A stretch of DNA of 64,000 bases from a virus. The notes under the pieces are model-generated. The model ran no database searches, was not told the origin of the DNA, and saw only the letters and a program-made list of their open reading frames with translations. Each line of letters starts with the position of its first letter. The stretch's first letter is position 1. Of this stretch, positions 3-63,674 are shown piece after piece. A program made the translations under genes and the position numbers. Where the stretch lies: IMG/VR virus record IMGVR_UViG_3300010885_081999, positions 39,726-103,725 of that record, one strand, 5' to 3'.

Positions 3-392
3 CGCAGAAAGGCCAGAATAAGACGGCGGAAGTATGTGTCCGCTGAGGGCAACAACCCACTCTCTCGGGGCCGAAGAGAAAGAGTCTATGTATTCGAGGA
101 CCGCGGAGGTCATGTTGGCCTCGGTCGCTCCCTGGGAGATCCAGTCCGCCATCCTGTCGACGATTGGATCGGTCTCTTTAGGGGGATACATGACGCCTGG
201 GAGACCACGAAGATACGACCAGGCTTCAACGGCAGCGCCGTATGCATTGCCTGTCTTAAAGGCCTTGACGAACCCTGCGTTGGCCAATACCCTCTTGACG
301 ATCTGTGCACTGACGTCGGTTCCTTCGCGGAGGGCGACCTTCTGCACTTCTTCCTTGATGATTCTGCGAAGCTGACTGACTGTGATCTTCAT
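3..392 (-). CDS. Hypothetical protein with MKITVSQLRRIIKEEV leader (3' end runs off the window)
   Basis: Manually translated open frame from ATG at 392 to the window edge; not in the ORF track; ATATTTA motif upstream (425-431). Confidence 0.8.
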   Translation of the reverse strand, partial: MKITVSQLRRIIKEEVQKVALREGTDVSAQIVKRVLANAGFVKAFKTGNAYGAAVEAWSYLRGLPGVMYPPKETDPIVDRMADWISQGATEANMTSAVLEYIDSFSSAPREWVVALSGHILPPSYSGLSA

Positions 393-435
393 GCGTTTTT
401 CCTTTTGATCGAAAGAAATGCAAATAAATATTCCG

Positions 436-1428
436 TCAGGCCGGAAAGTGCTGCAGCAGGTCCACTTTCTTTGCGGCTGCCTCGTCGAGGTACTTCAGCG
501 GGTTGTAGTCCTCGGATCCCCTGATCCACTCCAGGGTCTCTCGAATACCCTGCGACAAATCAAGTTCTGGTTTCCACCCAAGCTTTTCCCTGATTTTCTG
601 AGAGGACAATCGGTGGTTACCGAGGTAGTCCGTCTTGGGATGCCACACCAGCCGTCCGCTCGTGCCAGGGAGGTGGGCATCGACTTCGGACACGACCTCG
701 GACGCGGGACGGGCAGTCTCCGCCGCAACGTTCCAGTCGGTTCCCCATCCCTGACCCATGGGATCTCGGCACACGACCTCGATCGCCTTGCAGAAGTCCG
801 ACACGTGGAGGTAGTCCTTCACCTTGGTGGGATCGAGGAACATGTCGATCGAAGGTCGACCTTTCAGGGAGGCATAGATCGACTTCGCGATGAGGGAGTT
901 CATGTCACCGAGACCTCCGAAGGCGAAGAGGGGACGCACGATCGTCCATCGATTCGCCATCGCGGTGACGATCTGCTCGGCCGCGAGCTTCTGGACGCCG
1001 TAATATGTCCGCGGGCACTTGTCAGAGGCTTCCGTGATCCACTCGTCCTGGTATTTCGGAGTATCGTAGATCACCGTCGTGCCGAGGTAGCAGACAGCCG
1101 CCTTGGCCCTGTTCGCAGCCCGGACGATGTTGTAGGTGCCTTGCACGTTGGAAAGCACAGCTTCCTGAGGATCGAGCGCGACGACGTCTGTACCTACGAC
1201 GGCCGCATTGTGCACGACGACGTCGATGTCGTTACCGTAGAGAACGTTGTACCATGCATCTTCTGAGTTCTGCCAGATGCATGCCTCCCCCGTCTTCGGA
1301 ACCTTCTTGGGTTCTGCTGCGTCGGAGAAGAGCTCACCGTCAGTGACGACCTCGTGCTTACGAGACTCGAGGACGACCTTGAGGTTGCGTGAGATCAGCC
1401 CGTTTTGGCCCGTGATGTAGAACTTCAT
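436..1428 (-). CDS. NAD-dependent epimerase/dehydratase (extended SDR, NDP-sugar)
   Basis: ITGQNGLIS Rossmann motif, HNAA, YGVQK (YxxxK); GGAGG RBS before ATG 1428. Confidence 0.85.
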   Translation of the reverse strand: MKFYITGQNGLISRNLKVVLESRKHEVVTDGELFSDAAEPKKVPKTGEACIWQNSEDAWYNVLYGNDIDVVVHNAAVVGTDVVALDPQEAVLSNVQGTYNIVRAANRAKAAVCYLGTTVIYDTPKYQDEWITEASDKCPRTYYGVQKLAAEQIVTAMANRWTIVRPLFAFGGLGDMNSLIAKSIYASLKGRPSIDMFLDPTKVKDYLHVSDFCKAIEVVCRDPMGQGWGTDWNVAAETARPASEVVSEVDAHLPGTSGRLVWHPKTDYLGNHRLSSQKIREKLGWKPELDLSQGIRETLEWIRGSEDYNPLKYLDEAAAKKVDLLQHFPA

Positions 1429-1489
1429 TGTACCTCCATCATAAACGGCTCGGGCGGCCATTTTCACAGCCGCCCGAGCCGAAGCTATC

Positions 1490-1945
1490 TCACTCAATTT
1501 CCTTGTCGTACGGTTCGTAGAGCATCTTTCCTGCGGCCTTGCTGCGATCGAGATAATCCTCGAGCTCTTCGAATGAAGTACACACGCGTGCACCTGATCT
1601 ACTCAACATGAGGTTGAATTTTGCTCCAGCTGGGAGTCCGGCGCAGAAGTAGATGATGTGCTTGTCGAAGGCTGTTGCATATCCGCACTCCATGATAGTG
1701 CCCAAGTCCTTATCGCGAGTGTTGACGACAAGGAAGTCAGATTCGCGGATGTGTTTCAAATTACCCTGATAAGTCGCATCCTGAACCTCACGGGAAGCAT
1801 TTGGTGGGCAAATGAAGATTCGTCGTGGAGACGCCATGTCAATCCAGTCCTTACGTGCCTCCATGATTTGTTCGAGTCTGGTGAGCTCGGCGTCTTGAAC
1901 GGGGTTGAACCAGCCTGCGGCGAGGTACATCTTTTTGCGATTCAT
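1490..1945 (-). CDS. Nucleoside 2-deoxyribosyltransferase / nucleotide N-glycosidase family
   Basis: YLAAGWF, D-x-GT-x-x-E-x-GYA and NLML motifs. Confidence 0.8.
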   Translation of the reverse strand: MNRKKMYLAAGWFNPVQDAELTRLEQIMEARKDWIDMASPRRIFICPPNASREVQDATYQGNLKHIRESDFLVVNTRDKDLGTIMECGYATAFDKHIIYFCAGLPAGAKFNLMLSRSGARVCTSFEELEDYLDRSKAAGKMLYEPYDKEIE

Positions 1946-6376: not shown

Positions 6377-7039
6377 TCAGAGCATCGCGAGAGCAGACTG
6401 TAGAGTGGTTCTGTCCACCTTTCCAGCAAGCTGGTCGCCGACGTACTCCTTGAACACCGGATCGCTCACGTCATCGCATCCCAAATCGGGGCAATGTCCT
6501 TCGTAGTTGCGAATGATGTAGTCAACAAGCTTGACTGGGTCGGCAGGTATAACGTCCATCGACCGTCTACGAGGACCGCCGCCGTCGTGTTCGGCAACGA
6601 AGCCCCAATCGCCGCTCTTCCATGCCGCGAACTCCTCTTGGGTGATGCGAGCGTGGCCCTCTTTCAACGACTTCGCCTTGCGCTTGCGAGACTCGCCCAT
6701 TGGTGCAGCGGGCATCGAAACCGACGGCTTGTCGTAAGCACGAAGCTTCTCGTCACCCTCAAGGTAATCCTTGACGTGCTCCAGGTCGGTGTGAGCAGAG
6801 GCCACGAGGTCCTGCACCCAAGCAGGAAGCTGGTCTCCCATCTCGATGAGACCGCAGATGGTCTCGGCCATGTCCTTGACGTCTGACATGCGAGACTTCA
6901 CCATGTAACCCTCGTCGTCCATCGGGTGACCGGACTCAAAACCGTGGAGGAAGCGCTGGGGATCCTTGCCTCCGGCAGGCATCATGGACTCGACTTCTTC
7001 CTTGATGATCTTGCGTAGTTGTGTTGCTGTGAGCTTCAT
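6377..7039 (-). CDS. Hypothetical protein with MKLTATQLRKIIKEEV leader; putative virion internal protein
   Basis: Leader motif; DDEGYMVKS...LPAWVQ...DYL segment. Confidence 0.75.
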   Translation of the reverse strand: MKLTATQLRKIIKEEVESMMPAGGKDPQRFLHGFESGHPMDDEGYMVKSRMSDVKDMAETICGLIEMGDQLPAWVQDLVASAHTDLEHVKDYLEGDEKLRAYDKPSVSMPAAPMGESRKRKAKSLKEGHARITQEEFAAWKSGDWGFVAEHDGGGPRRRSMDVIPADPVKLVDYIIRNYEGHCPDLGCDDVSDPVFKEYVGDQLAGKVDRTTLQSALAML

Positions 7040-7051: not shown

Positions 7052-7510
7052 TTACTTCTTCCTTGTTGCCTTGAAATCCGCAGTCGCCTTGCCTGTGGGT
7101 TGGAATTTCTGACCGAAGCCGGCCTTCCACAGCATGCCTGTGGCCGTCTCGGCGTAGTAGAAGTCGCCGTCCCTGAAGAACTTCACGAGCTTGTTCTTCT
7201 TTGCCTCTGCAGGAGTCGTCCTCGTCGCACCGAATGCCTGCTCCGCGGGCACCGGTTGGAGCCTCTGACCCAGAGGAGTCGTCGCGACGTACTCATCGCG
7301 ACGATTCTTGCGTAGCGTCTCGGCAGCTCGGGCTGCGGCCACGACGAGGTCAAGTTGCTCGTCGTCGATATCATCGAGAGAAGATACACCAAAGAGGCTG
7401 AGAAGCGGCGTCTCGTCGACTCTCGCGCCGTATTTGTCCTTGATGACCTCAGTGATAGAAGTCATTTCTTCTTTGATGATCCTGCGAAGTTGTGTTGCTG
7501 TGAGTTTCAT
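7052..7510 (-). CDS. Hypothetical protein with MKLTATQLRRIIKEEM leader
   Basis: Leader motif; tightly packed with neighbours. Confidence 0.75.
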   Translation of the reverse strand: MKLTATQLRRIIKEEMTSITEVIKDKYGARVDETPLLSLFGVSSLDDIDDEQLDLVVAAARAAETLRKNRRDEYVATTPLGQRLQPVPAEQAFGATRTTPAEAKKNKLVKFFRDGDFYYAETATGMLWKAGFGQKFQPTGKATADFKATRKK

Positions 7511-7512: not shown

Positions 7513-7758
7513 TCACCACCGGCTCCCTCTACGGCCGTAACTTCCGCCTGAGCTTCCGCCCTCAAAGGGAGTCGCCTCCCCGTCCTCGAGCCACGAGTAT
7601 TCGGGGCTCTCAGCAGAGTCGAAGTACTCCTCATTGCCCTCGTCGTCCACGAGGTATAGCTCAGTGCCGCGGCGCACGATCGACTGTTCGTGCTCGAGCA
7701 GCACCTTCTGCAGTTCTTCTTTGATGATACGGCGGAGTTGTGTCGTTGTGATCTTCAT
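7513..7758 (-). CDS. Hypothetical protein with MKITTTQLRRIIKEEL leader
   Basis: Leader motif; ATGA overlap with the dps-like stop codon. Confidence 0.75.
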   Translation of the reverse strand: MKITTTQLRRIIKEELQKVLLEHEQSIVRRGTELYLVDDEGNEEYFDSAESPEYSWLEDGEATPFEGGSSGGSYGRRGSRW

Positions 7759-9505: not shown

Positions 9506-9694
9506 TCACTTAGAGGACAATTTCATGTCCTTTGCCCATGCCCTGATCTTCTTCTTCGCCCAGTTGGGGACATAGACGCTGTCCTCTTCGAAGGCAGGAT
9601 CGTCCATGAGCTCCATGGTATAGGTCTCGTCAGGCTGTGATCCTCCGAAGACCTTCCTCACTGTCTCGCGTAGTTGTCCTATCGTCATCCTCAT
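9506..9694 (-). CDS. Small protein with leader variant MRMTIGQLRETVR
   Basis: ATACTTA 6 nt upstream of ATG 9694. Confidence 0.6.
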   Translation of the reverse strand: MRMTIGQLRETVRKVFGGSQPDETYTMELMDDPAFEEDSVYVPNWAKKKIRAWAKDMKLSSK

Positions 9695-17731: not shown

Positions 17732-18013
17732 TCAGAGAACGGCGTCGATCGCATGCATCATGATGCTGAAAATTGCCTCTGAGCGGACGTCGCCTCGTTC
17801 TGCCTTCTCAGCGTATGCCTGCATGAAGGCTTCTTCGAGACCCGGAAGCGAAAATACCTTGGGAGCATCCGTCGTCGTCGTGTAGAGGTCCCAGTAGTGT
17901 TTCGCCTCACGTGAGATTCGAGGATCAACGGGAGGTGCCACGTCGGCTTCGCCTAGAGCCTTCTGAGCTTCTTCTCTGATTATCCTGCGGAGTTGTGTCG
18001 TAGTGATCTTCAT
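17732..18013 (-). CDS. Hypothetical protein with MKITTTQLRRIIREEA leader
   Basis: Leader motif; ATAGTTA and AGGAG upstream. Confidence 0.75.
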   Translation of the reverse strand: MKITTTQLRRIIREEAQKALGEADVAPPVDPRISREAKHYWDLYTTTTDAPKVFSLPGLEEAFMQAYAEKAERGDVRSEAIFSIMMHAIDAVL

Positions 18014-18027
18014 GACGCTTCTCCTAA

Positions 18028-18321
18028 CTATGTGCTCCTGATGAATTGTAGCATCTTGTCCTCGAGAACTTTCTTGATGTCTTCTTCAATCTCTTCGAGG
18101 ACTTCGTTCGCTGCAGCGAGCATCTCTCTCTGACGTACCGAATCCGATGCTGTTATCTGTATGTGACGTTTGAGGTGACGCTTGAGTCCCTCGGCTGCGT
18201 CGGATGCCACCTGCGACAGAGCGAAGTCAGGTATGCCACGAGCATAGTCTTCCGCAAGGACAGTTCGAATTTCTTCGACGACCAAACGCCTCAGTCCTGC
18301 CCTCGCGTCTTTCAAGGTCAC
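18028..18321 (-). CDS. Hypothetical protein with leader variant LRRLVVEEIRTVLAE
   Basis: GTGA overlap with the upstream gene. Confidence 0.65.
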   Translation of the reverse strand: MTLKDARAGLRRLVVEEIRTVLAEDYARGIPDFALSQVASDAAEGLKRHLKRHIQITASDSVRQREMLAAANEVLEEIEEDIKKVLEDKMLQFIRST

Positions 18322-21430: not shown

Positions 21431-21450
21431 GATGTGGATCCTTAACTATA

Positions 21451-29689: not shown

Positions 29690-30232
29690 TCAGCTAGAAG
29701 AGGCGAGGCTCTTCGCTATCTGCTTGACCTTGGCGAGCGAAGAATCGTACAAACGATCGGCTTCCTCATCGGACATCTTCCTGAACGTGTCGCTATCCCC
29801 CGTGACGTAGACGAGCGCATCGAGGAAGTCCGCTCCGTAGCCCATACCCAAAGCTCCGTCGACGGCATACTTGACAGCATCTTGCTTTGCGTAGTCCGGT
29901 CGGCCGGGAGAGGCACCTGTCCAGGACCAGTCCGAAGATCCAAAAGACTTCTGGATCTTCGAGGCGAGCGTGGCGGGATCAAGTGCCGCGGCGGCGCCCT
30001 TCATAGCCGAGAAGCTAGCTCCTGACTTCTTCTCGTTGGACGCGTCCTTGAAAGCAAGACGAAACTTGTCGAAGTCGGCGTCCGACAGCGCAAGCAGCGC
30101 CGTCTTGATCACGCCCCTGCCCACGCCGGCGAGGGTGCCAGAGGCCAAGGCGGTGCCGAAGTCCGCAGCTTCTCTCAAGTTGTTGACTTCTTCATTGATG
30201 ATTCTACGTAGTTGGGACGATGTGAGCTTCAT
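29690..30232 (-). CDS. Hypothetical protein with MKLTSSQLRRIINEEV leader
   Basis: Leader motif; AAGGA RBS. Confidence 0.75.
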   Translation of the reverse strand: MKLTSSQLRRIINEEVNNLREAADFGTALASGTLAGVGRGVIKTALLALSDADFDKFRLAFKDASNEKKSGASFSAMKGAAAALDPATLASKIQKSFGSSDWSWTGASPGRPDYAKQDAVKYAVDGALGMGYGADFLDALVYVTGDSDTFRKMSDEEADRLYDSSLAKVKQIAKSLASSS

Positions 30233-47293: not shown

Positions 47294-47785
47294 TCAGAAC
47301 TGCAACACGCAGTTGTCGAAGCGGAGGGTCATGGAGATTTCCATCGGACCGCCGTCTTCGTACGTCACTTCACCGAAGTTAGCCTCGGTGATGAATGCAC
47401 CCTTGATGTCCCAGAGCTCGACGACCGTACCGACGGGATCAAGCATCTTCAGCTGGATGTCACGCTTGTAGAAGTCGGCGTAGCCTGCGCGGCCGGAGAC
47501 CGACTCGAAGTGTGTGCGGACCCACTCCATCACCTGCTGTGCGCCTGAGGGAGCGATGGGGTCGTGGAGGGTGACCGCGATCGTTCCGAAGCTCGTCTTG
47601 CCCGCGAGGTACCTGCGGGAGTTGATGAACGGAACCTCGACCTCTTCGGTCGTGATCGTGGGGCGAGCTGAGGTCTTGATGATGTAGGCGTCGATGCCCT
47701 CGATCATGAGGACCCAGCGGTTCTTGCGCTTCGGCTCAAACTTGGCCGGAATCATCGATGTGACGTCAAGTGTCTCTGCGGGCAT
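47294..47785 (-). CDS. Tail tube protein (T4 gp19-like)
   Basis: FEPKR.NR, YLAGK, DPI.PSGAQ.VMEW, LDPVG.VVE.W..KGAF; follows the sheath genes. Confidence 0.85.
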   Translation of the reverse strand: MPAETLDVTSMIPAKFEPKRKNRWVLMIEGIDAYIIKTSARPTITTEEVEVPFINSRRYLAGKTSFGTIAVTLHDPIAPSGAQQVMEWVRTHFESVSGRAGYADFYKRDIQLKMLDPVGTVVELWDIKGAFITEANFGEVTYEDGGPMEISMTLRFDNCVLQF

Positions 47786-47809: not shown

Positions 47810-47816
47810 TAAGTAT
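47810..47816 (-). promoter_or_regulatory. Putative late-promoter motif ATA(C/G/T)TTA (representative copy, before tail tube)
   Basis: Recurs at 425, 9478, 9701, 11186, 15477, 18025, 18786, 21443, 27707, 29035, 51833, 54935, 58106, 58411, 63680 (minus) and 5415 (plus). Confidence 0.7.
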
Positions 47817-47856: not shown

Positions 47857-48201
47857 CTACACGGGTCCGTTTGCTTCTTTCCACGCCTCGAGGGCTGTGT
47901 CGATCTCGTGGTTCATGCCGCCCAGTCTGTCTTCGATGATCTGTACGGCGTTGGGATTTACTTCTGCGGCCTCGCCCGAGTCGAGGAGGTCGCGAAGCTG
48001 GTCTTGAACTGCTGCTCCGAGGGAGGCATAGCTCTCTGCGAAGTCTAGAAGCTCGACGGCGTCGAGGTCGTAGAGGCCTCCGTGTCCCGTGTCTCCGTAG
48101 GAAGACACAGCCTCGACGAGACGACGGTTCTGTTTCTTGAGAAGCGCAGTTGCGATCTCATCGTCCACCATTTCTTGAAGCTGTGTCCTTGTGATTCTCA
48201 C
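47857..48201 (-). CDS. Hypothetical protein with leader variant (M)RITRTQLQEMVDDEI
   Basis: AAGGA RBS before GTG 48201. Confidence 0.65.
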   Translation of the reverse strand: MRITRTQLQEMVDDEIATALLKKQNRRLVEAVSSYGDTGHGGLYDLDAVELLDFAESYASLGAAVQDQLRDLLDSGEAAEVNPNAVQIIEDRLGGMNHEIDTALEAWKEANGPV

Positions 48202-48280: not shown

Positions 48281-51200
48281 TCACTGTACCTGCGTGAGGT
48301 TGTTGGCAACGACGAAGTCAAGCGAGACGAACTCGATGCTCTTCGTGGGCTGCACGTAGATCTTGCCACGGATCGTGTTGTTGAGGATGTCGTCCTGGGT
48401 CGTCGTCGAGGAGTCGATGATGACCTTGAACCTCTCGAGGCCGCTGAGGGCCTGGATCCTCTGCAGGCGGGGTGTGACCGCCGAGGAGAAGCGTGCGAGG
48501 GTCGCCTCACGGTTGGGCTCGAAGAGGATCGTCTGCGCGATGTCGCGGACCTGACGACGGATGTCGATGAGGAGACGACGCACGTTGACGCGGTCGAGGG
48601 CCGAGGCAGCGAACTGCAGGGTCTTCTGACCCCACACCACGATGCCGCCCTTCGGATTGAGGCCGCCCTTCGCGGCTCCTGGGAACGCCACGATAGGGTT
48701 GATGGAGTTGTCGTACAACTTGTCCATGTCCGTCTGACCCAACCTGACGCGGGGTTCGAGTGCTGCGTCCGGAAGGGCGCCGCGCGTGAAGCCTGCGGGA
48801 GCGAACCAGGGATATCCGACGGAGTCGTTGAGGGCGAGGGCGCCGAGGACGAGGACCGAGGGAGGCACCTGCATGTTGACACCGATCGGATCCCTGTAGA
48901 GGACGTCGGGGAAGTATGCCGCCGCGAACGAGGAGTCGACCGACCTGTTGACGAAGTAGTCGACCGTGTTGATGACGGACGGCAGCTGGCTGTCGGAGAT
49001 GATTGCATCGCCGTTCTCGTCCTGCTGCTCGATGTCCATGATGTAGAGCGCGTCGAACCTCTCCTGCACTGCGAGGGTCGCAGCGTCCGTGACGATGGGC
49101 TCTCTGATGCCGGGGATCGCGAGGATCTGTATGTCGAGGTTGACGACGTTCTTCATGATGTCGAGGGCCTTGAGGTACGTCCTCACGTTGGGTCCCTCCT
49201 CGGGCTTCGAGGCGCGTGCCGCAGCAGGATCCATGTCGTACATCACGGCGTTGTTGTTGATCTCCGTCTCGTTCCTGTCGAAGATGTTGACGCCGTCCTG
49301 TCCGCCCTGCATGATGAGGGTGAACTTGGCGAACTGCTTGTTGGTGGGGATGTCCTCGACCTTGAAGCCGCGGACCTTGTTCTCGTCTCCCTTGCCGTCG
49401 GTCGCAATCTGATCGAGGTTAGTCGATCCGACCGCTCCGTTCCTGACGTACACGGCCTTCGACCACTTCGTGGGGCTCGCGAGGCCGTTGCTGCCAGTGA
49501 CGACCTGGATGTTCTCGAGGGAGAAGAAGTTGTTGCAGAACCTGTCCGCGTCGAGGATGCCGAGGTCGGCCGAGTCGGGCTGTCCTGCGTTGCTTCCCGT
49601 GAGGAACGAGGCATCACTGATCGAGAAGTTGGGGAACGCGAGGGCGAAGGACTTGATCGAGGCGTTGGGAAGTATGCTTCCGTTCTTCCTGATGAGGTTC
49701 TCCGGGTGCTCGAACTGGACGCCCCAGTAGAACTTGGACTCCGTCTGCTCCTTGACCGACCACTCGTCGGCAGACGTGATCTTACGCCTGAACGGCAGCG
49801 GAGGGGTCTGTGCCTTCTTCGCCGTGTCCGTGACCGCGAGGAGGCCGTTGTCGTCGATTCCGAACTCCTGCATGGGAGCAGAGCCGCTCGTGACGAGGTG
49901 GTCGATGCCGCGGAAGCCCATGGGCAGTGCGACGGGATCGACGAATCCGTTCTCGATGTCGGGGTGGACCTCGACGCGGATGTAGTTGGAGCGGTTCTCG
50001 TAGTTGCCCTCCACGACGATCTTCTGTGAGGATTCCTCACGGTCGAAGTCGAAGTAGGCATGGACGTCGCCGATCACCTTCGCGATGTAGCGGTCGGAAG
50101 AAGGATCGAGGTTTACGCCTGCGAAGACCTCGTTGGGGAGGTTCTTCTTGTCGAGGTCCCTGTCGCCGAACTCGCGGAGAGAGACAGTAAAGGAGCCGTA
50201 CTTGTTGAGAGGATCGTTGGAGACCGTGACGTTCTCGACGGACACCTTGAACTTCGAGGAGATGCCTGCGCCGTCGTCGAGCGCGTGGATTCTGAAGAGG
50301 TCCTGCGGCTTTCCGCCGAACTTCTGTGAGACTATCCACGGAGACACTGCGTGGCTGAACCTGTCCTCGAAGGACTCGTAATCGGGAACCGTCGTGCTCG
50401 ACTCGTTGCGTCCGAGGGACGACGTGACGATGAAGGCGCTGGGCTCGAGACCGCCGTTCGAGTCGGCCGAGTAGGCGTCGTCGACGAGGCCCGATCCTGT
50501 GATGACGGCGAGCGTCGGGTGGACGTCCCAGTTCGCGTAGAGGAAGTGTCCTGCCTCCTGGAGCTTATAGGGGTCCGTGTTGAACGACTTCGCGAAGTAG
50601 TTGTTTGCCGTCGGGTCGAACGACGCCGTGAGGACCCTGGGGTACCTCGCGTCGGAGCCGAGGTGACCGTTGAGGAACATCGTGAACTCCTGACGGGGCT
50701 CGTTGTTGTTCTTCAGCACGACCGTTCCCAAGGCAGCGCCCTTCGCGTCTGCGTCCGTTCCCACCGTGGTCGCGGTGGGTGCCTCGCCGCCGTCGGCGAT
50801 GAAGGTCGAGGAGAGACGAAGCACGACGCCAGACGGTGCCATCAGCACGCCTCTGATTATGGGAAGGGCCGCGGCGCCGCCGGAGGCGCCGCCTGGTCCC
50901 TGAAGACCTGCCTCACTGAAGAAGGTGGATCCTGCCGACTCGGACATGAAGCATCCGAGGAAGTAGGTGCGTCCGAGGTCGGGTCCGAGGTAAGTATCGT
51001 CCACACCGCCGCTGAAGTCCGAAGACACGATCTCTGTGATGGAACCCGACGGGAAAGTGAGCGATCCGTTGGGGAGAGCTCCGTTGTCCTGCATCGAGAT
51101 GGTGACCACACCTGCTCCGTTGTTGCCGCCGTTGATCAGCGCACCGAGACCATAGAGTGGTGTGATACCGGCAAAGATCTTGTCTGCGAGCTTCTTTCCT

Positions 51201-51811
51201 GTGGTGACGCCGCCGCCGACCGGGATGGTCGACTGGAAGACGCCGGGCGAGGGATTCGTCACCACCGGAGCGTGGCTTCCCGTCATCGATTCGTCGAGGA
51301 CGAACTTCACGGTCTGGCTCGCAGGGGTGAGGAACGAGAAGTAACGACCGTTCTCTCCACCGCCCGGAGTATACGGCGAGCAGGTGAAGGTAGCTGAGGC
51401 TGCAGCTCCTAGCAACAGATAGGGATCAGGATTCGCGTGTGGATTGTCGGTGAGCACTCCGTTGGTACCGGGCTGACGCTCTCCGACGACGAATCCTGCT
51501 GACGTCACCTTGCCCGTGACAGTATCGCGGGCACGGCCGTCGCCGGCTCCGAGGACGCGGAGATAGGCCACGGAGCGGGCGCTCCGCAGCCACTCTACCA
51601 CGGCCAAGGGGCCGAACTTCTTGCCGTCTGTGGTGCCGAACTTGGAATACCAGTCAGACAGAGTTCCAACAGTGATGGGGACGAATGCGGGGCCCTTGAT
51701 TGAGGTGCCGATGATGCCCGCGGGGATGCCCACGGGCTGCTGCGTGATCGGACCTGAGATGTCGATCTCCCTCGATGTGACGCCTGCGCTACCGAATTTC
51801 AGTTGTGCCAT
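48281..51811 (-). CDS. Tail sheath protein (paralog 2)
   Basis: SAGV..REID, GPAFVP, PWFAPAGF.RG, WGQKTLQ..SALDRVNVRRLL, FEPN. Confidence 0.92.
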   Translation of the reverse strand: MAQLKFGSAGVTSREIDISGPITQQPVGIPAGIIGTSIKGPAFVPITVGTLSDWYSKFGTTDGKKFGPLAVVEWLRSARSVAYLRVLGAGDGRARDTVTGKVTSAGFVVGERQPGTNGVLTDNPHANPDPYLLLGAAASATFTCSPYTPGGGENGRYFSFLTPASQTVKFVLDESMTGSHAPVVTNPSPGVFQSTIPVGGGVTTGKKLADKIFAGITPLYGLGALINGGNNGAGVVTISMQDNGALPNGSLTFPSGSITEIVSSDFSGGVDDTYLGPDLGRTYFLGCFMSESAGSTFFSEAGLQGPGGASGGAAALPIIRGVLMAPSGVVLRLSSTFIADGGEAPTATTVGTDADAKGAALGTVVLKNNNEPRQEFTMFLNGHLGSDARYPRVLTASFDPTANNYFAKSFNTDPYKLQEAGHFLYANWDVHPTLAVITGSGLVDDAYSADSNGGLEPSAFIVTSSLGRNESSTTVPDYESFEDRFSHAVSPWIVSQKFGGKPQDLFRIHALDDGAGISSKFKVSVENVTVSNDPLNKYGSFTVSLREFGDRDLDKKNLPNEVFAGVNLDPSSDRYIAKVIGDVHAYFDFDREESSQKIVVEGNYENRSNYIRVEVHPDIENGFVDPVALPMGFRGIDHLVTSGSAPMQEFGIDDNGLLAVTDTAKKAQTPPLPFRRKITSADEWSVKEQTESKFYWGVQFEHPENLIRKNGSILPNASIKSFALAFPNFSISDASFLTGSNAGQPDSADLGILDADRFCNNFFSLENIQVVTGSNGLASPTKWSKAVYVRNGAVGSTNLDQIATDGKGDENKVRGFKVEDIPTNKQFAKFTLIMQGGQDGVNIFDRNETEINNNAVMYDMDPAAARASKPEEGPNVRTYLKALDIMKNVVNLDIQILAIPGIREPIVTDAATLAVQERFDALYIMDIEQQDENGDAIISDSQLPSVINTVDYFVNRSVDSSFAAAYFPDVLYRDPIGVNMQVPPSVLVLGALALNDSVGYPWFAPAGFTRGALPDAALEPRVRLGQTDMDKLYDNSINPIVAFPGAAKGGLNPKGGIVVWGQKTLQFAASALDRVNVRRLLIDIRRQVRDIAQTILFEPNREATLARFSSAVTPRLQRIQALSGLERFKVIIDSSTTTQDDILNNTIRGKIYVQPTKSIEFVSLDFVVANNLTQVQ

Positions 51812-51856
51812 TTCTCTGCTCCCAATTATTGCTAACTATGCCTTTGAACCTGATTT

Positions 51857-54800
51857 TCAGACGAACTGCACGCCACTATTTGTGATGATGAAGTCGATGG
51901 CGATGTACTCAATAACTCTCGTTGGGACCACGACGATGCGGCCGTTCAACTTGTTGAGGTCGACGTCCTCCTGAGTGTTGTTCGACTCGTTCATGACGAC
52001 CTGGAAGGCCTCGATTCCTGCCTGGGCCTGGATGAGACCGAGCTGGAACGATGCGTCCGCCACGAACTTGTTGCGTACTGCAGGGGTGTTCTGCTCGAAC
52101 ACGATCCTCTGCGCGATTCCGATGATGATACGCTTCACCTCGAGGAGGAGGCGACGCACGTTGACGCGGTCGAGGGCCGACTTGTTGATCTGCAGGGTCT
52201 TCTGACCGTAGATCACGTAGCCGAGTCTCGGGAACGTCGCGATCGGGTTGATGCGTGATTCGTACAGCCTGTCCCTGTCCGAGACGTTGAGTCTCACCGC
52301 GACGTTCGTCACGAAGTCCAGTGCCGCGCGGTTGAAGCCTGCAGGAGCGAACCACGGGTACGACACGCGATCGTTGAATCCGAGGGCGCTCATTGCGGCG
52401 ACTGATGCGGGAACCTTCACCTTGCGGCGATTCGTCGCGTCGTCGATGAAGATCTCGGGGTAGTACACTGCGGCGTAGTTGTTGTCGATCGTGCGACTGT
52501 CGAACTGTGCCGTCGTGTAGTTGACGTTGGGCTTCGCGGTGGAGTCGTCGTACAGACGGTTTCCTTCGTCGTCATAGGACGGGATGTCCATCACGTACAT
52601 CGCGAGGCCGTAGTCCCTCACCTTCTTCATCGTCTGATCGGTGATGTAGGGCTCCTTGATGCCCGGGATTGTGAGGATGTTGTTGTTCGCCTCGAGAGGG
52701 TTCGTCATGATGTCGACCGCCGTGAGGTACGACGCGACGCCGTTGTTGTCGACGTCCTGGCCCGACGGATTTCCGTTGACGGGGAATCCCGGGATGTCGT
52801 TGTTGGACGAAGCTCCGCCGCCCGCGTCGAAGGACACCGACTTGTCGTTGAGGCGGCGCGCGTCCCTGTTGAGGAAGTTGGTGCCATCGAATCCTCCGTA
52901 CATGAAGTTCGTGAACTTCGCGTATGCGGAGAACCTGTTGAACTGCGACGCAGTTCCCGACGAGATGAGGGTGCCGAACGTGAGACGCTTGCGACCGTTC
53001 TCCGACCACGTGTAGTCAGTGGAGTCAAGCTTCGCGTTTCTCACGTATGCTGCCTCTCTCATGTGAGTGTTCACCGAGCTGGTGAGATGAGAGAAGGCAG
53101 TGTTGTAGAAGGCCACCTTCGCGAGGCTGAACTTGTTGTCGTGCAGCTTGTCGGCAGAAGATCCCGTGACGAGGGCATCGAGCTTCTCGATTCCCACGAA
53201 CTTAGTGAGAGACTCGAGGAGCATATTTTTCTCGCTCGTCACGTTGGGGTTGAGGACGTTGTTGGAGTCGGGATCCGAAGAGACGCTGTCTCTCTCGAAC
53301 TTCACACCCCAGTAGAATGCAGGATTCGCCTGTTCGGCAGCACCTGGTTCTCCCACGAATGCGGAGGACTTCGTCTCGCCTCTCGTCGCCTTGAAGCGGT
53401 GAGGTATGGGCGGGAGGAACGATCCGGAGAGGCCGAGACCCGCAGGGGCGGCGACGACGCCGAGGCGGGCGATTCCTGCGTCGAGGACTTCGTCAACTTT
53501 AAGGTTCGGATTGACGTTGAGGACCTCGGGACCGTGGAAGCCGAAGGGAAGCACGTTCGGAGGAACGATTCCGTTCTCGACCGCCTCGTTCATGACGACC
53601 CTGACGTACTTCGAGTTGTTGGGATAGTTGCCCGTGGCCACGAGACGCTTCTCCGAGGGATTGAGCGTGTCGAAGTTGTAGAACAGCTTCCTGTTTCCGA
53701 TCAGCTTCGCGATGTAGTTGCTCGACTTGGGATCGAGGCTGCAGTTGGAGAACTGCTCGATCACCTTCGGGCTCGCGTCGGTGTCGGTCCAGTCACGGAT
53801 CTGAACGTTGAACGTTCCGTACTTGTTCGCGTCGTTGGTGGACGCCTTGATGTTGCTGATAGAGATCTTGTAGAGGCTGTTCGCGTACTCTCCGTCGTCG
53901 ATCGCCTCGAACTTGAAGAGGTCGTATTCAGTCGTGCCGAAGGGCTGCGAGATGAAGAACGACGTCTGCGGCGCCTTGAAGCGGGTGTTGTAGGAACCGT
54001 ACACCTCTCGGAAGAACATACCTGTGTCGCCGTTCACCGCTGTGTTGGAGGATCCGGAGAGTACACCGACCGCCATCGAGGACGAGACGTAAGCGACGTT
54101 GGCGTCGACGGCATAGTCCGCATGGAGGTAGTGCTGCTCCTGATAGAACTTGTCCGGGTCCGTGTTGAGGATCTTGCCGAAGTAGTCCTTGCTTGAGGGA
54201 TCGAGCGACGCGGTGAGCACGCGTACTCCGTCGACGCCGTCGGTCTTGTAGAACGAAGAACCGAGGGACGAAGAGATGATGATCTTGAACTTGCCGTCGC
54301 CGTCGACGACCGTCGTGTCCTTGCGAGCATCATGGCCATACGTGACCTTTGCGGACGACGTCAGGACCATGAGACGTGCAGTGTCAGGAGTCATCACGAG
54401 GCCGCGAACGAGGTTGACGTAATCGGAGCCTCCCACGGTGTCGTTGTCCTCGAAGGAGGGGGCGCCAGTTATTCCCTTGGCAGTCTTGAAGTGGGTGGCA
54501 GCGATGAACTGAACCACGCCTGGGTTCCTCTTGTCGAGGACTCCGGCGTTAGTACCCGAGAGCTTGAAGCCTGCGTTCTTCACGATTCCATAAGTTGTCG
54601 TGGCCGTGAGGTCGACGTCTGAAGAGTTCGCACCTGCACCGAGGACCCTCATGTAGGTCAGGGCCGCGCGGTGCTTCAGGAACTCGTTGACTGCATAGGG
54701 TCCAAACTGCTTCGTGTCGAGGTTGCCGAACGTCTGCACGAAATCATTGAATTTCGCGACAGTGACGGGAACGAAGGCAGGACCCTTGTTGGAAGTACCG

Positions 54801-54901
54801 ATCACAGCCGCTGGGACGCCCACAGGGCCTTGGACTGACGGAGCGGAAAGGTCTATCTCGCGCTCATAGAAGTTGGGCGACTTAAATGTCTGCTCGGGCA
54901 T
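51857..54901 (-). CDS. Tail sheath protein (paralog 1)
   Basis: SP....EIDLS, GPAFVP, PWFAPAGFNR, YGQKTLQ..SALDRVNVRRLL, FEQN. Confidence 0.92.
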   Translation of the reverse strand: MPEQTFKSPNFYEREIDLSAPSVQGPVGVPAAVIGTSNKGPAFVPVTVAKFNDFVQTFGNLDTKQFGPYAVNEFLKHRAALTYMRVLGAGANSSDVDLTATTTYGIVKNAGFKLSGTNAGVLDKRNPGVVQFIAATHFKTAKGITGAPSFEDNDTVGGSDYVNLVRGLVMTPDTARLMVLTSSAKVTYGHDARKDTTVVDGDGKFKIIISSSLGSSFYKTDGVDGVRVLTASLDPSSKDYFGKILNTDPDKFYQEQHYLHADYAVDANVAYVSSSMAVGVLSGSSNTAVNGDTGMFFREVYGSYNTRFKAPQTSFFISQPFGTTEYDLFKFEAIDDGEYANSLYKISISNIKASTNDANKYGTFNVQIRDWTDTDASPKVIEQFSNCSLDPKSSNYIAKLIGNRKLFYNFDTLNPSEKRLVATGNYPNNSKYVRVVMNEAVENGIVPPNVLPFGFHGPEVLNVNPNLKVDEVLDAGIARLGVVAAPAGLGLSGSFLPPIPHRFKATRGETKSSAFVGEPGAAEQANPAFYWGVKFERDSVSSDPDSNNVLNPNVTSEKNMLLESLTKFVGIEKLDALVTGSSADKLHDNKFSLAKVAFYNTAFSHLTSSVNTHMREAAYVRNAKLDSTDYTWSENGRKRLTFGTLISSGTASQFNRFSAYAKFTNFMYGGFDGTNFLNRDARRLNDKSVSFDAGGGASSNNDIPGFPVNGNPSGQDVDNNGVASYLTAVDIMTNPLEANNNILTIPGIKEPYITDQTMKKVRDYGLAMYVMDIPSYDDEGNRLYDDSTAKPNVNYTTAQFDSRTIDNNYAAVYYPEIFIDDATNRRKVKVPASVAAMSALGFNDRVSYPWFAPAGFNRAALDFVTNVAVRLNVSDRDRLYESRINPIATFPRLGYVIYGQKTLQINKSALDRVNVRRLLLEVKRIIIGIAQRIVFEQNTPAVRNKFVADASFQLGLIQAQAGIEAFQVVMNESNNTQEDVDLNKLNGRIVVVPTRVIEYIAIDFIITNSGVQFV

Positions 54902-54973
54902 TATACAATCTCCTTGAATCTGTGATTCTTGGCATAACTATCACGCATAAAGCTAGGAATCACCACTTTGTGG

Positions 54974-56904: not shown

Positions 56905-58083
56905 TCAACCTATCACTATGCCCTTGCCGAGAGGCATGGGCACGAATCGAAGCTGCTTGTTGAGCGACTCGGCAGCCAGGGCGTCTGCCTCGAGGAGCTT
57001 CTGGTGCGTCAGCTGCCCCAAGAACTCCTTCATCTGCGTCTGAAGCTTGTCCTTGTCCTCCCTCGCCTGTGAGAGAAGCGCCTCGCCGTTCAGCTGGAGG
57101 TCGGCATTGGGTATCGGTATGGTCTGGAATTTCGACCTGATGAGACCGAGCAGCTCTCTGCTGAGTGCCAAGGTGTACTGCCGTATCCACTGACGACCCG
57201 GCTGATTGATCGTGGCGAAAGGAATGTTGTCGAGGGGAATCGACGCAGGACCCGATATGCCGTAGACCGAATCGTCCTTGTATGCCGAAGGATTGAGTGG
57301 GTCTTGGGGAGGAAGCACCTTGCAGAACAGCTTTCCGACCTGCAGGTCAGTGATGGGTATGGGATAGATCCTCAGCTTGCTGCCTTGTATCTCGTACGAG
57401 TAGTGTGACCTCCTCACGCGGAAGGCCGATTCCAGCATGCCTCTCCTCAGGACGTCCTCGAAGATGGGGAGGACGTAGAAGACGGAGGAGTTGACGTACG
57501 ACTCGTAGTTGAAGTTGGTGGCGAGGAAGTTGGTGATGTTCGACGCGTTGAGGAGGAAGTGCTGTGCCGCGAGAGGTTCCATGTGGAACAGCTCCACGAC
57601 TCTCATCTTTCCCTTCGATCCGGAGGGCAAGTTGTCGAATATCACAGATCCAGAAACTACGTCCTTGAGGTCCTTGTAGAGGTCGTAGTCCTGTTGCCCA
57701 CCGACGAGGTCGAAGTAACCGAACACGGGATTGCTCGATCCTCCCACGAAAGCATTCGTCGCATAGGGCTCAGCCATCCTGAGTAGGTACTCGAGAGACC
57801 GCTGTGAGTACCTGTTGGTGAGGTTCGTGGATCCCGTCGGGAGACCGAGGACGTTAGTGAGCTCCGAGACGATCTTCGTCTCGTGTATGAGACGTGAGTA
57901 CTCGCAGGTCGCCTCTTCGAAGCAGGCCCAGATCTCCTTCTTCGTCAGCTCGACAGAAAGGACGTCGTCGCCGAGCTTGCGCTTGACGTACGTAACCATT
58001 GAGTCCGCCTCAGACTGAAACGCCGAGTCGGCATCGAAGAATCCGAAGGGCGTAGGCCCGATGGTCGAGTTGAAGCTAGTCAT
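56905..58083 (-). CDS. Neck / head-tail adaptor protein (T4 gp13-like)
   Basis: RKLG...VEL, WIRQY.LAL.RE.LG.IRSKF..IP, LNG..L. Confidence 0.7.
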   Translation of the reverse strand: MTSFNSTIGPTPFGFFDADSAFQSEADSMVTYVKRKLGDDVLSVELTKKEIWACFEEATCEYSRLIHETKIVSELTNVLGLPTGSTNLTNRYSQRSLEYLLRMAEPYATNAFVGGSSNPVFGYFDLVGGQQDYDLYKDLKDVVSGSVIFDNLPSGSKGKMRVVELFHMEPLAAQHFLLNASNITNFLATNFNYESYVNSSVFYVLPIFEDVLRRGMLESAFRVRRSHYSYEIQGSKLRIYPIPITDLQVGKLFCKVLPPQDPLNPSAYKDDSVYGISGPASIPLDNIPFATINQPGRQWIRQYTLALSRELLGLIRSKFQTIPIPNADLQLNGEALLSQAREDKDKLQTQMKEFLGQLTHQKLLEADALAAESLNKQLRFVPMPLGKGIVIG

Positions 58084-58136
58084 TCGTCATACCTATCCCG
58101 TGAGATAAGTATGCGTTTAAAGGCGATTCGACAACG

Positions 58137-58834: not shown

Positions 58835-58863
58835 TTTTTCTCCTTTGACCGTTACGAGATGAG

Positions 58864-58936
58864 TGGACTCGGACGGGATCGAACCGACGACATCCGCCTT
58901 GCAAAGGCGGCGCTCTCCCAGCTGAGCTACGAGCCC
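58864..58936 (-). tRNA. tRNA-Ala(TGC)
   Basis: Cloverleaf; anticodon arm CCGCC-TTTGCAA-GGCGG; G3:U70; GTTCGAT T-loop; CCA not encoded. Confidence 0.95.
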
Positions 58937-58937
58937 T

Positions 58938-59012
58938 TGGTTGCAGAGGCAGGAATTGAACCTGCGATCTTCTGGGTATGAACCAGACGGGATGCCACTT
59001 CCCCACTCTGCG
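58938..59012 (-). tRNA. tRNA-Met(CAT), initiator-like
   Basis: Anticodon arm TCTGG-TTCATAC-CCAGA; C1:A72 mismatch; CCA encoded. Confidence 0.88.
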
Positions 59013-59040
59013 TCAACTTCAGTATCATACACTAGATCTG

Positions 59041-59114
59041 TGGGACGTACACGACTCGAACGTGTGACCTCAACTTTATCAGAGTTGCTATCTAACCAAC
59101 TGATATAACGTCCC
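59041..59114 (-). tRNA. tRNA-Ile(GAT)
   Basis: GGGACGT/ACGTCCC acceptor stem; anticodon arm CAACT-CTGATAA-AGTTG. Confidence 0.9.
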
Positions 59115-59191
59115 GACTTTCCTTCTTGCCTTCAGACACTGAGAGGTGGTGAGACTTGATCTAACTGAATCAAGTAGGAAACTCACTCTTA

Positions 59192-59566
59192 GGTGGAGGT
59201 GCCGGGAATCGAACCCGGGTCCACCACGACTCTTTCAAACACATCGTCCACAAGCTTGGAATGAGTTTATCGACCTCATCCTCGTCTAGAAAGTTCTCAC
59301 CTATGTGTTCGGGTAGAGGGCTTCCAACCTTCCCTATCCTGGGACCCACCATCCCAGTCGATCCACCCCAAACAACGGGGGTAACTACATTCTTCGGAAC
59401 GATTCTTTTTCTAGGCCGTTCCCGCCCATTCCTCAGGCCGCGAGGGCCATCGGAGCGATGCCGTTGTCGTTGGCGTCTATACGTCATTTGGGTTTTGATC
59501 GGGACCCTCATGCACCCGAGCCTGCTGCGTCTGCCTTCGTCGCGATGTCGAAACCTGATCACCCCC
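59192..59566 (-). ncRNA. ssrA: One-piece tmRNA; tag ANDNGIAPMALAA
   Basis: 5' GGGGGTGA...TTCGAC; 3' GGACCCGGGTTCGATTCCCGGCACCTCCA; G3:U70; tag ORF 59474-59433. Confidence 0.95.
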
Positions 59567-60770: not shown

Positions 60771-60842
60771 GTTCTTTATCTCCTCGAGACGTATTGATTG
60801 GCGTCTCGTTGGTATGATAGTAGTCTTGGCCCCCGGTCTTGT

Positions 60843-61214: not shown

Positions 61215-61245
61215 GTGGTAATCTTACCACGCAGGGGACGAAATT

Positions 61246-62343: not shown

Positions 62344-62344
62344 C

Positions 62345-63307
62345 TCAACCCTTGATGATTCCTGCCAACTTCTGCCACCTCTCGAGGACGAAGCCTCGCT
62401 CCCTTGACTCCTGCTTCTTGACGGCGGACTCGCCAGCCGATGGTGCTACTTCGGGAGAGTACGGCGGATTGATGTCCATGATGCCTCTGCTGATGTCCTT
62501 CGCGACCTGAGCGAGCTGTTCTCCTTCGATCGCAGGCATGTCGATCTTGGCGGGCATCCATCCCTCGATCGTGCGCAAGTCAGCTGTTTCGTCCCAGTTC
62601 TTCTTGACGTGCTCCGCGGCGGCGTCGAGGCTATCGAAGCCTTGCTTCTTGAAGGACGCGAGGATGTCTTCGGGAGAGGGAAGGAACTTGCCGCCCTTCG
62701 AACACATCTCCTTAAACTTCTCTGAGACAGCATCGCCCGTGAGCGATGCGAGGTTCGTATCGGAAGGCTTGCCCTTGCCGCCGTGCGCCGCCGTCCAGAC
62801 GTTCAGCACGCCCACGAGCTGTTCACCGGGAAGGTCGACGAGGAGACCTCCCACCTTCGCGCTAGGGTCCACCATGAGCGTGGCTGCCCAACGGTGATGT
62901 CCGTCCATGATGTGACCGTCGGACGAGACGATGGCACCGAGGTCTCCTCCTGCGCCGCCCGAGAAGCTGCCCATCTTTCCCATCATCTGGATCGCCATTC
63001 CCACGAACTTTCCGAAGTCCATCGTGGTCTGACTCGCCTTCATCGCCGTCGCAGGACGAGAGACGTTTCCCGTGGGGGCAGTGTCGTCCTCCTCCTTCTT
63101 GTCTTCCTGACCCTTCGATGCGAGGCCCTTCGCGAGGGTGGGATCAACATCGCTCAGCTTCGTGGGAAAGAGCTTGGGATCGATCTTGGCGGGGTCTGCG
63201 TCCTCGAGGAGGAAACGCAGGGAGTACCTGCTGCGGCGGTTCTCGGAGACGAGCTTCCTCGTCTCTCTGGCGATGATGCTTCTCAGTCTTGTCTCGGTGA
63301 GTCTCAT
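62345..63307 (-). CDS. ParB/sulfiredoxin-like domain protein with leader and C-terminal ERWQKLAG
   Basis: IVSSDGHIMDGHHRWAA motif. Confidence 0.75.
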   Translation of the reverse strand: MRLTETRLRSIIARETRKLVSENRRSRYSLRFLLEDADPAKIDPKLFPTKLSDVDPTLAKGLASKGQEDKKEEDDTAPTGNVSRPATAMKASQTTMDFGKFVGMAIQMMGKMGSFSGGAGGDLGAIVSSDGHIMDGHHRWAATLMVDPSAKVGGLLVDLPGEQLVGVLNVWTAAHGGKGKPSDTNLASLTGDAVSEKFKEMCSKGGKFLPSPEDILASFKKQGFDSLDAAAEHVKKNWDETADLRTIEGWMPAKIDMPAIEGEQLAQVAKDISRGIMDINPPYSPEVAPSAGESAVKKQESRERGFVLERWQKLAGIIKG

Positions 63308-63320
63308 GGAGGATGTCCTT

Positions 63321-63674
63321 TCAGGCGCCGACGGCCTTCGCGACCTTTGCGGTCTCGGTTGAAGAAGTCTTCTTCTCGCTCATCATACTGTCGACGATGG
63401 ACATGATCTGCGTGAAGTATTTCTTGATCTGGTCGGCGTTGATGTTGGCCGCCTTCTCGTCGATGTCTCCCAAGATGCTGCCCAGCGTCTTCATCGAAGT
63501 GGCGAAGGCGTTGAGACCCGTGGGAGGGCTGCTCGCGAAGGCCTTCAGCTTCTTCTTCTGCTGGTCGGTGAGACCCGAGGCGCCTGCCGAACCCGAGGCA
63601 GCGTCTTCGGCCTCCAGGATCCTGCTGACTTCTTCTTTGATAATTAGACGCAACTGCTGTGGTGTCATCTTCAT
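63321..63674 (-). CDS. Hypothetical protein with MKMTPQQLRLIIKEEV leader
   Basis: Leader motif; ATACTTA 5 nt upstream of ATG. Confidence 0.75.
   Translation of the reverse strand: MKMTPQQLRLIIKEEVSRILEAEDAASGSAGASGLTDQQKKKLKAFASSPPTGLNAFATSMKTLGSILGDIDEKAANINADQIKKYFTQIMSIVDSMMSEKKTSSTETAKVAKAVGA

What the first reader, a model, noticed from the sequence alone, without database searches (positions are those of the whole stretch)
3..63674. Shared N-terminal leader on many unrelated proteins: candidate capsid-cargo addressing and cleavage system
Seen: near-identical leaders on proteins with otherwise dissimilar bodies, scattered over 63 kb: MKITVSQLRRIIKEEV (392), MKLTATQLRKIIKEEV (7039), MKLTATQLRRIIKEEM (7510), MKITTTQLRRIIKEEL (7758), MKITTTQLRRIIREEA (18013), MKLTSSQLRRIINEEV (30232), MKMTPQQLRLIIKEEV (63674) and MRLTETRLRSIIARET (63307). 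Looser variants occur at 9694, 18321, 29029, 48201 and 58340. The helix is usually followed by an (L/I)xE site (ALREG, SITEV, VLLEH, ALGEA, NLREA, RILEA, FLLED, VLAED, RLVEA). Most of these genes, or their operons, carry the ATA(C/G/T)TTA motif also found before the sheath, tube and neck genes. None of the replication enzymes has the leader. Established: T4 internal proteins carry a short N-terminal capsid-targeting sequence that the gp21 protease removes after (L/I)xE. Inference: this is a portable amphipathic tag that loads diverse cargo into the prohead, where it is cleaved; the cargo may then be injected into the host.
Basis: partly seen in the sequence, partly recalled or inferred. Interest (0 to 1): 0.9.

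Follow-up and report, generated by a model that had tools for sequence, protein, structure and literature searches.

The report
Shared head-loading tag on phage proteins
A fragment of an uncultured giant T4-like phage starts about ten unrelated proteins with one 22-residue helix; related phages carry the same helix on two small proteins encoded beside their head-maturation protease, so it is probably a tag that loads proteins into the capsid, though nobody has yet observed the loading or the clipping.

Summary
Seven ORFs in the window and two more in the rest of the 104-kb contig start with the same 15-22 residue peptide. Two divergent copies (63307, 48201) are also supported; four looser ones are marginal. 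The bodies share no detectable similarity. Synonymous sites are nearly randomised and upstream DNA is unrelated, so selection acts on the peptide, not the DNA.

The tag is widespread. A profile finds 9,547 representative proteins (50% identity clusters), mostly from marine viral contigs. They often sit in tandem arrays of up to 37 genes per 150-300 kb genome.

The new evidence is a link to the head module. In relatives, two conserved small proteins beside the T4-type prohead protease gene start with a homologous segment, in register (hhalign P 7e-6 and 5e-7). Other lineages place canonical tag genes directly before the protease. Conservation stops at residue 22, where 75% of copies have (L/I/V/M)-x-E, the T4 protease site type. 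A radical-SAM maturase, a DNA cassette and a single paralogous family were tested and rejected.

Best reading (about 0.6): a much enlarged analogue of the T4 capsid-targeting sequence, not its homologue. Loading, cleavage and injection are inferred, and the window's own head module lies off the contig. The scan has flagged similar tags in other genomes.

The parts
3..392 (-). Strict leader ORF (200 aa in full; runs past the window start to genome 39515)
   Evidence: Leader HMM 37.5 bits. ATAnTTA lies 39 nt upstream.
6377..7039 (-). Strict leader ORF, 220 aa, last of a three-gene tandem set
   Evidence: HMM 37.0 bits. Leader-bearing orthologues in L078 and L085.
7052..7510 (-). Strict leader ORF, 152 aa
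   Evidence: HMM 36.8 bits.
7513..7758 (-). Strict leader ORF, 81 aa
   Evidence: HMM 35.2 bits. Orthologue in L110.
17732..18013 (-). Strict leader ORF, 93 aa
   Evidence: HMM 35.0 bits. ATAnTTA lies 18 nt upstream.
29690..30232 (-). Strict leader ORF, 180 aa, just downstream of the baseplate/tail block
   Evidence: HMM 37.9 bits. Leader-bearing orthologue in L054.
63321..63674 (-). Strict leader ORF, 117 aa
   Evidence: HMM 35.7 bits. ATAnTTA lies 12 nt upstream.
62345..63307 (-). Divergent leader ORF, 320 aa
   Evidence: hhalign against leader profile A3: P 7.5e-5, residues 1-22.
47857..48201 (-). Divergent leader ORF, 114 aa, between sheath 2 and tube
   Evidence: hhalign P 2.2e-5, residues 1-20. 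A similar ORF heads the first array in G004.
18028..18321 (-). Marginal leader-like ORF, 97 aa
   Evidence: hhalign P 0.003 against A3 and 0.047 against the protB family. Not established.
9506..9694 (-). Marginal leader-like ORF, 62 aa
   Evidence: hhalign P 0.0015. ATAnTTA lies 13 nt upstream.
63680..63686 (-). ATAnTTA promoter-like site before leader ORF 63674
58106..58112 (-). ATAnTTA site before the neck/head-completion gene (56905-58083)
54935..54941 (-). ATAnTTA site before sheath paralogue 1 (51857-54901)
51833..51839 (-). ATAnTTA site before sheath paralogue 2 (48281-51811)
47810..47816 (-). ATAnTTA site before the tail tube gene (47294-47785)
18025..18031 (-). ATAnTTA site before leader ORF 18013
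425..431 (-). ATAnTTA site before leader ORF 392
21443..21449 (-). ATAnTTA site before the RNR gene (18833-21430): the exception to a purely structural regulon

Best explanation
The 22-residue N-terminal amphipathic helix is a portable prohead-addressing module. It is the same module that starts two small conserved head-assembly proteins encoded beside the T4-type (Peptidase S77) prohead protease. Proteins that carry it would co-assemble with the scaffolding core through this helix while the prohead forms. The protease would then cut after the conserved (L/I/V/M)-x-E at the end of the helix, leaving the mostly small, acidic bodies inside the capsid. Shown here: peptide-level conservation, unrelated bodies, homology to head-module proteins, a conservation boundary at a Glu site, and the protease in all near-complete relatives. 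Inferred: binding to the core, cleavage, retention in the virion, and ejection into the host.
For: 1) The tag always sits at residue 1. Conservation falls to background after position 22.
2) 74.5% of 231 copies have (L/I/V/M)-x-E with Glu at positions 19-24, against 10-19% in equal-width windows of the bodies.
3) Selection is on the peptide. Identical residues use identical codons in 62% of pairs against 51% expected from codon usage, and upstream DNA is 27% identical.
4) The bodies are unrelated. 299 tagged proteins fall into 204 BLASTP components. They include a YkuD transpeptidase, a P-loop kinase, a zinc ribbon and an EF-hand.
5) Leader profile against the family encoded right after the protease (protA): hhalign P 6.8e-6. 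Against the next gene's family (protB, 50 sequences): P 4.7e-7. Both align in register at the N-terminus.
6) In G006, a closer relative (neck protein 77% identical), both proteins start at residue 1 with the tag.
7) A protB HMM built without any window sequence retrieves all seven strict window leader ORFs as its top hits in the contig.
8) In G014, G010 and the cultured Flavobacterium phage immuto, tag-bearing small ORFs lie directly before the protease.
9) PF03420 is present in 5 of 5 tag-bearing records that are at least 90% complete, and in 22 of 33 overall.
10) Tag genes share the ATAnTTA site with the neck, sheath and tube genes in the contig, and the same site precedes structural genes in G004.
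11) T4 precedent: diverse internal proteins share only a targeting sequence, which the prohead protease removes C-terminal to Glu (PMC3012670, PMC5694885).
Against: No virion proteomics or expression data exist for any tag-bearing phage.
The window's own contig has no protease, capsid or protA/protB gene.
A quarter of copies lack the site near position 22.
Most tag genes lie in arrays far from the head module; in G004 they are 115 kb away.
Up to 37 cargo species per genome far exceeds T4.
The bodies are strongly acidic (median pI 4.6), which is awkward next to packed DNA.
The major capsid protein and the large putative scaffold do not carry the tag.
ATAnTTA also precedes the RNR gene.
The co-occurrence with the protease is at lineage level, not independent evidence.
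Confidence: 0.6

Rival explanations
1. The helix is a general docking or oligomerisation module that is not cleaved and has nothing to do with virion loading. It might bind a common phage or host partner in the infected cell, for example a phage-encoded chaperone. The head-module proteins would simply share the same ancient helix.
For: The helix has a continuous hydrophobic stripe flanked by basic residues. The protB model is helix-linker-long helix, and its only PDB sequence hits are weak coiled coils. G004 encodes DnaK- and DnaJ-like genes near two arrays. Most arrays lie far from the head genes. The small acidic bodies resemble host-takeover proteins.
Against: This reading does not explain the sharp boundary at a Glu site of the protease type. 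It also does not explain why tagged ORFs repeatedly sit immediately beside the protease gene in four separate lineages.
Confidence: 0.2
2. The shared 5' coding stretch is a DNA-level recombination anchor or mobile cassette boundary that lets genes be swapped, and the peptide is a by-product.
For: The genes form tandem arrays with abutting stop and start codons. ORFs with 2-4 fused units exist. Another first-reader note proposed this.
Against: Synonymous positions are close to random given codon usage, and upstream DNA is unrelated. The same peptide is kept in genomes of 39% and 55% G+C with different codons. Recombination at the tag may still occur as a secondary effect.
Confidence: 0.05
3. 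The tag is a recognition leader for a modifying enzyme (RiPP-like, for example a radical-SAM/SPASM maturase), as an earlier follow-up proposed for a different shared phage tag.
For: That earlier scan finding on phage RB43, and the general logic of one enzyme serving many leader-bearing substrates.
Against: No Radical_SAM domain is found in the contig, in G004 (complete, 30 tag genes), in G014 (complete) or in G006. Only G008 has such genes, and they are not next to its arrays.
Confidence: 0.03
4. All tagged proteins are fast-diverging paralogues of one small scaffold-like family, so the 'cargo' is only diverged scaffold.
For: Most bodies are short, helical and acidic with no detectable domain. 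protB itself is tag plus coiled coil.
Against: Some bodies carry clearly unrelated folds: YkuD, a P-loop kinase and a zinc ribbon. There are 204 BLASTP components among 299 proteins.
Confidence: 0.1

Closest known systems
Phage T4 capsid targeting sequence (CTS) on internal proteins IPI, IPII, IPIII and Alt, removed by the gp21 prohead protease (Mullaney and Black 1996, as cited in PMC5694885 and PMC3012670)
   Same: A short N-terminal peptide shared by otherwise unrelated proteins. It ends at a site with Glu at P1. The phages encode the same protease family (Peptidase S77). The variable gene sets sit in plastic loci.
   Different: There is no sequence similarity: the leader profile finds nothing in the T4 genome. 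The tag is 22 residues against about 10. There are up to 37 carriers per genome and about 9,500 representative clusters overall. The tag is shared with two conserved head-module proteins. Some ORFs hold several units. Nothing has been shown experimentally.
Long N-terminal propeptides of inner-head and ejection proteins of phiKZ-like giant phages (SPN3US, 201phi2-1, phiKZ), cut at (A/S/G)-x-E (PMC5694885)
   Same: Many head-internal proteins are processed after Glu by a T4-related protease. Paralogues can share identical N-termini. The capsids are large, with dozens of protein species.
   Different: Those propeptides are mostly over 100 residues and specific to each family. They are not one portable 22-residue tag on thousands of families.
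T4 prohead core proteins gp67 and gp68
   Same: Small proteins encoded next to the protease gene, part of the scaffolding core, and cut by the protease. This matches protA and protB in position.
   Different: No significant profile similarity (P 0.05-0.36). Only position and size correspond.

Membership tests
T4-type capsid targeting sequence / protease-removed N-terminal propeptide | Sits at the extreme N-terminus of otherwise unrelated proteins | tested here: met
   The tag starts at the start codon in 300 of 317 HMM hits and in all window copies. The bodies are unrelated.
T4-type capsid targeting sequence / protease-removed N-terminal propeptide | Short (10-20 residues in T4, per PMC5694885) | tested here: met
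   The conserved unit is 22 residues; information content drops to background at position 23.
T4-type capsid targeting sequence / protease-removed N-terminal propeptide | Ends at a prohead-protease site with Glu at P1 | tested here: met
   (L/I/V/M)-x-E with Glu at positions 19-24 in 74.5% of copies, against 10-19% in body windows, and in 7 of 9 strict copies of this contig. This is at sequence level only.
T4-type capsid targeting sequence / protease-removed N-terminal propeptide | The same genome encodes a gp21-type (Peptidase S77) prohead protease | tested here: inconclusive
   Absent from this 32%-complete contig. Present in 5 of 5 near-complete and 22 of 33 tag-bearing relatives.
T4-type capsid targeting sequence / protease-removed N-terminal propeptide | Sequence homology to T4's own CTS | tested here: not met
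   The leader profile gives 0 hits in the T4 genome at E up to 1. A direct pattern comparison with the T4 CTS could not be run.
T4-type capsid targeting sequence / protease-removed N-terminal propeptide | Association with the prohead core or head-assembly module | tested here: met
   The tag is homologous to the N-termini of two head-module families beside the protease (P 6.8e-6 and 4.7e-7). Canonical tag ORFs lie before the protease in G014, G010 and phage immuto.
T4-type capsid targeting sequence / protease-removed N-terminal propeptide | Late expression | tested here: inconclusive
   The tag genes share the ATAnTTA site with the neck, sheath and tube genes, but the RNR gene has it too. There are no transcript data.
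T4-type capsid targeting sequence / protease-removed N-terminal propeptide | Carriers are physically packed into proheads and the tag is cleaved off | not testable with these tools
   Needs virion mass spectrometry or fusion-protein encapsidation.
RiPP-like leader served by a radical-SAM maturase | A radical-SAM enzyme is encoded with the tagged genes | tested here: not met
   PF04055 is absent from the contig, G004, G006 and G014.
DNA-level repeat or recombination cassette | Nucleotide conservation beyond what the peptide requires, extending into flanks | tested here: not met
   Codon identity is 62% against 51% expected, and upstream identity is 27%.

The most novel reading that the evidence does not exclude
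The tag is the homotypic assembly helix of a modular prohead core, and any protein fused to it is drafted into the capsid. On this reading the roughly 9,500 tagged clusters are a vast, fast-turning 'ejectome' of mostly small acidic effectors (anti-defence and host-takeover proteins, plus enzymes such as an L,D-transpeptidase). They would be injected with the DNA of abundant marine jumbo phages. The ORFs with several units would be polyproteins that the head protease cuts at each tag.
Probability: 0.3. Interest if true: 0.85.

Novelty: new variant of a known kind. Interest (0 to 1): 0.65.

Why it matters
If the tag really addresses proteins to the capsid, a simple profile would predict the packaged, probably injected, protein set of a large group of uncultured marine jumbo phages directly from sequence. 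That set is thousands of small proteins of unknown function, the most likely place to find new anti-defence and host-takeover factors. It would also show that the T4 'load and clip' principle has arisen, or diverged beyond recognition, with a different peptide and at far larger scale. It would tie the address to identifiable core proteins (protA and protB), which gives a concrete binding partner to test. The tag could also serve as a packaging handle in engineered phages of this group.

Tried and rejected
- Pfam and PHROG scans of the tagged proteins found no family for the tag.
- Megablast of 22 kb of the window against cultured phages gave no match.
- tblastn of a consensus tag against cultured phages gave one weak hit only.
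- Full-text searches for eight-residue pieces of the tag and for the concept in marine phages found no paper. There is no proteomics paper for phage immuto or Mel-JY01.
- The tight leader HMM did not score the head-module proteins. The link appeared only with family profiles.
- The resemblance to T4 gp67 and gp68 is not significant.
- The major capsid protein and the 562-aa putative scaffold of G004 carry no tag.
- The radical-SAM partner is rejected.
- Sigma-70-like promoter hits are near background, with none placed before a tag gene.
- The protein atlas returned only 'hypothetical protein, viruses'.
- PDB sequence searches with protA and protB found nothing significant.
Full report
WHAT IS THERE. 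The window is the right-hand 64 kb of a single 103,725-bp viral contig, which CheckV rates 32% complete. It carries a T4-like tail module on the minus strand: a neck/head-completion protein, a gp15-like protein, two sheath paralogues, a tube, a hub and a tape measure. It also carries replication and nucleotide genes: RNR, a DnaB-like helicase and RecA. It holds no capsid, portal or protease gene.

A regular expression and then an HMM of the quoted peptide find seven strict copies in the window, at 392, 7039, 7510, 7758, 18013, 30232 and 63674. Each begins exactly at the start codon of a minus-strand ORF, at 35-38 bits. Two more lie in the left part of the contig. Profile comparison also supports the divergent copies at 63307 (P 7.5e-5) and 48201 (P 2.2e-5). 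The copies at 9694, 18321, 29029 and 58340 are marginal (P 0.0015-0.011); unrelated control proteins give P 0.09-0.28.

PEPTIDE, NOT DNA. The bodies show no pairwise BLASTP similarity (best E 0.2). Where two copies have the same residue, they use the same codon in 62% of cases; 51% is expected from this genome's codon usage alone. The 40 nt upstream are 27% identical, which is random. The same peptide is kept in a relative of 39% G+C with different codons. So the conserved object is the peptide.

HOW WIDESPREAD. In those loci an HMM finds 317 copies, 300 of them starting at a Met.
- A profile search of 1.84 billion representative proteins returns 9,547 with E up to 0.001.
- The word-indexed search of 90% clusters returned 5,296 among the 8,000 candidates it scored.
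- Many high scorers hold two to four tag-plus-body units in one ORF.
- Near-complete genomes carry 4 to 37 copies, mostly in tandem arrays with abutting stop and start codons. G004, a complete 293-kb genome, has about 30, of which 21 are consecutive.
- G004 is a true relative of the window phage: neck, gp14-like, gp15-like, both sheaths and tube are syntenic at 35-51% identity. G006 and G011 are closer, with the neck protein at 76-77%.
- Among 299 tagged proteins the bodies form 204 BLASTP components, 160 of them singletons.
- A few bodies are recognisable and unrelated to one another: a YkuD L,D-transpeptidase, a P-loop kinase, a zinc ribbon and an EF-hand.
- The bodies are mostly acidic: median pI 4.6, and 82% are below pI 6.

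ANATOMY OF THE TAG. In 264 distinct copies, positions 1-15 are nearly invariant and positions 16-22 are moderately conserved. Information then falls to background from position 23, where Asp, Pro, Gly and Glu become common. 74.5% of copies have (L/I/V/M)-x-E with the Glu at positions 19-24 (mode 22), against 10-19% in equal windows further in. The hydrophobic residues form one stripe on a helix flanked by basic residues (read from the sequence).

THE LINK TO HEAD ASSEMBLY. In G004, G001 and G002 the gene immediately after the S77 prohead protease (here called protA, about 140 aa) and the next gene (protB, about 90 aa) both begin with a tag-like segment. It ends in (I/L/M)-x-E at the same register.
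- 280 IMG/VR loci encode protA relatives, and both families keep this N-terminus.
- Profile-profile comparison of the tag with protA gives P 6.8e-6 (probability 85%), and with protB P 4.7e-7 (probability 93%). Both align from the N-terminus.
- In G006, both proteins start with the tag at residue 1 with no extension. Its protB is a secure family member (P 1e-17) and matches the tag profile at P 3.3e-6. Further tagged ORFs follow its capsid gene.
- A protB HMM that contains no window sequence pulls out all seven strict window ORFs as its best hits in the contig.
- In G014 and G010, canonical tag ORFs lie directly before the protease.
- In the cultured Flavobacterium phage immuto, a variant tag occurs both on three or four dispersed ORFs and on a 73-aa ORF between portal and protease.
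- PF03420 is present in all five tag-bearing records that are at least 90% complete, and in 22 of 33 overall.
- The AlphaFold model of protB is a tag helix, a disordered linker and a long confident helix, which is scaffold-like.

EXPRESSION SIGNAL. ATAnTTA occurs 32 times in the contig against 3.6 expected. It is nearly always on the coding strand, 12-40 nt before a start. It precedes the neck, both sheaths, the tube and five strict tag genes or the heads of their operons. It also precedes the RNR gene and some unknown genes. The same site precedes the portal, sheath, tube and neck genes in G004, and lies upstream of its three arrays. This fits a T4-like late promoter but does not prove timing.

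MECHANISM. The best reading is that the helix docks its carrier into the scaffolding core, alongside protA and protB, as the prohead assembles. The S77 protease would then cut after the terminal Glu, as T4 gp21 does with the targeting sequences of its internal proteins (PMC3012670 and PMC5694885). Shown here: the peptide-level constraint, the portability, the homology to head-module proteins, the boundary at a Glu site and the presence of the protease. Docking, cutting, retention and injection are inferred.

RIVALS. A DNA cassette is rejected. A radical-SAM maturase partner, proposed elsewhere in this scan for another phage tag, is rejected because two complete tag-rich genomes have no such enzyme. 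A single diverged paralogous family is contradicted by the unrelated domains. An uncleaved docking helix with a non-virion partner remains possible, at about 0.2.

COMPARISON AND NOVELTY. Functionally this looks like the T4 CTS, but it is not a sequence relative: there are no hits in T4, and gp67 and gp68 are not similar. It is longer, is shared with conserved head proteins, and is used at a scale not described for T4. No paper in the searchable library contains the tag or the concept for marine phages. Other follow-ups in this scan have reported comparable tags in other uncultured T4-like jumbo phages, so the phenomenon recurs in the scan.

Noticed in passing
window 58863-59566 (-): Three tRNA genes (Ala, Met, Ile) and a tmRNA gene with its own tag peptide lie between the neck gene and the upstream tag genes.
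   Followed up: no
window 48281-51811 and 51857-54901 (-): Two adjacent, very long sheath paralogues (1176 and 1014 aa), each with its own ATAnTTA site. The same pair is present in G004.
   Followed up: partly
G000 genome 11777, 19464, 21366, 23027 (L001/L002); G004 282952-293409 (L138/L139): A second, different N-terminal tag class, also ending in hydrophobic-x-E, heads another set of unrelated ORFs in both genomes. In G004 it sits next to a type-1 array.
   Followed up: partly
P0001, P0002, P0003, P0004, P0031, P0079, P0113: Metagenomic ORFs hold two to four complete tag-plus-body units in one frame, and the internal tags still begin with Met. They may be polyproteins, or fusions of neighbouring array genes.
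   Followed up: no
L029:6258-7055 (-): A YkuD-type L,D-transpeptidase domain carries the tag where a signal peptide would be expected. A cell-wall enzyme with no export signal would fit delivery by the virion.
   Followed up: no
G004 264955-265776 and 281033-282907 (L137/L139): DnaJ-like and DnaK-like genes lie close to the second and third tag arrays (read from N-terminal sequence only).
   Followed up: no
L232:7902-8126, L231:9859-10095, L147:5204-5431: A ribosomal protein S21-like gene sits inside the head module of G010, G014 and Microcystis phage Mel-JY01. It is annotated RpsU in the last of these.
   Followed up: no
G000 genome 1-612 (L001): The contig starts inside a collagen-like Gly-x-y repeat ORF, so the assembly probably broke in a repeat.
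   Followed up: no
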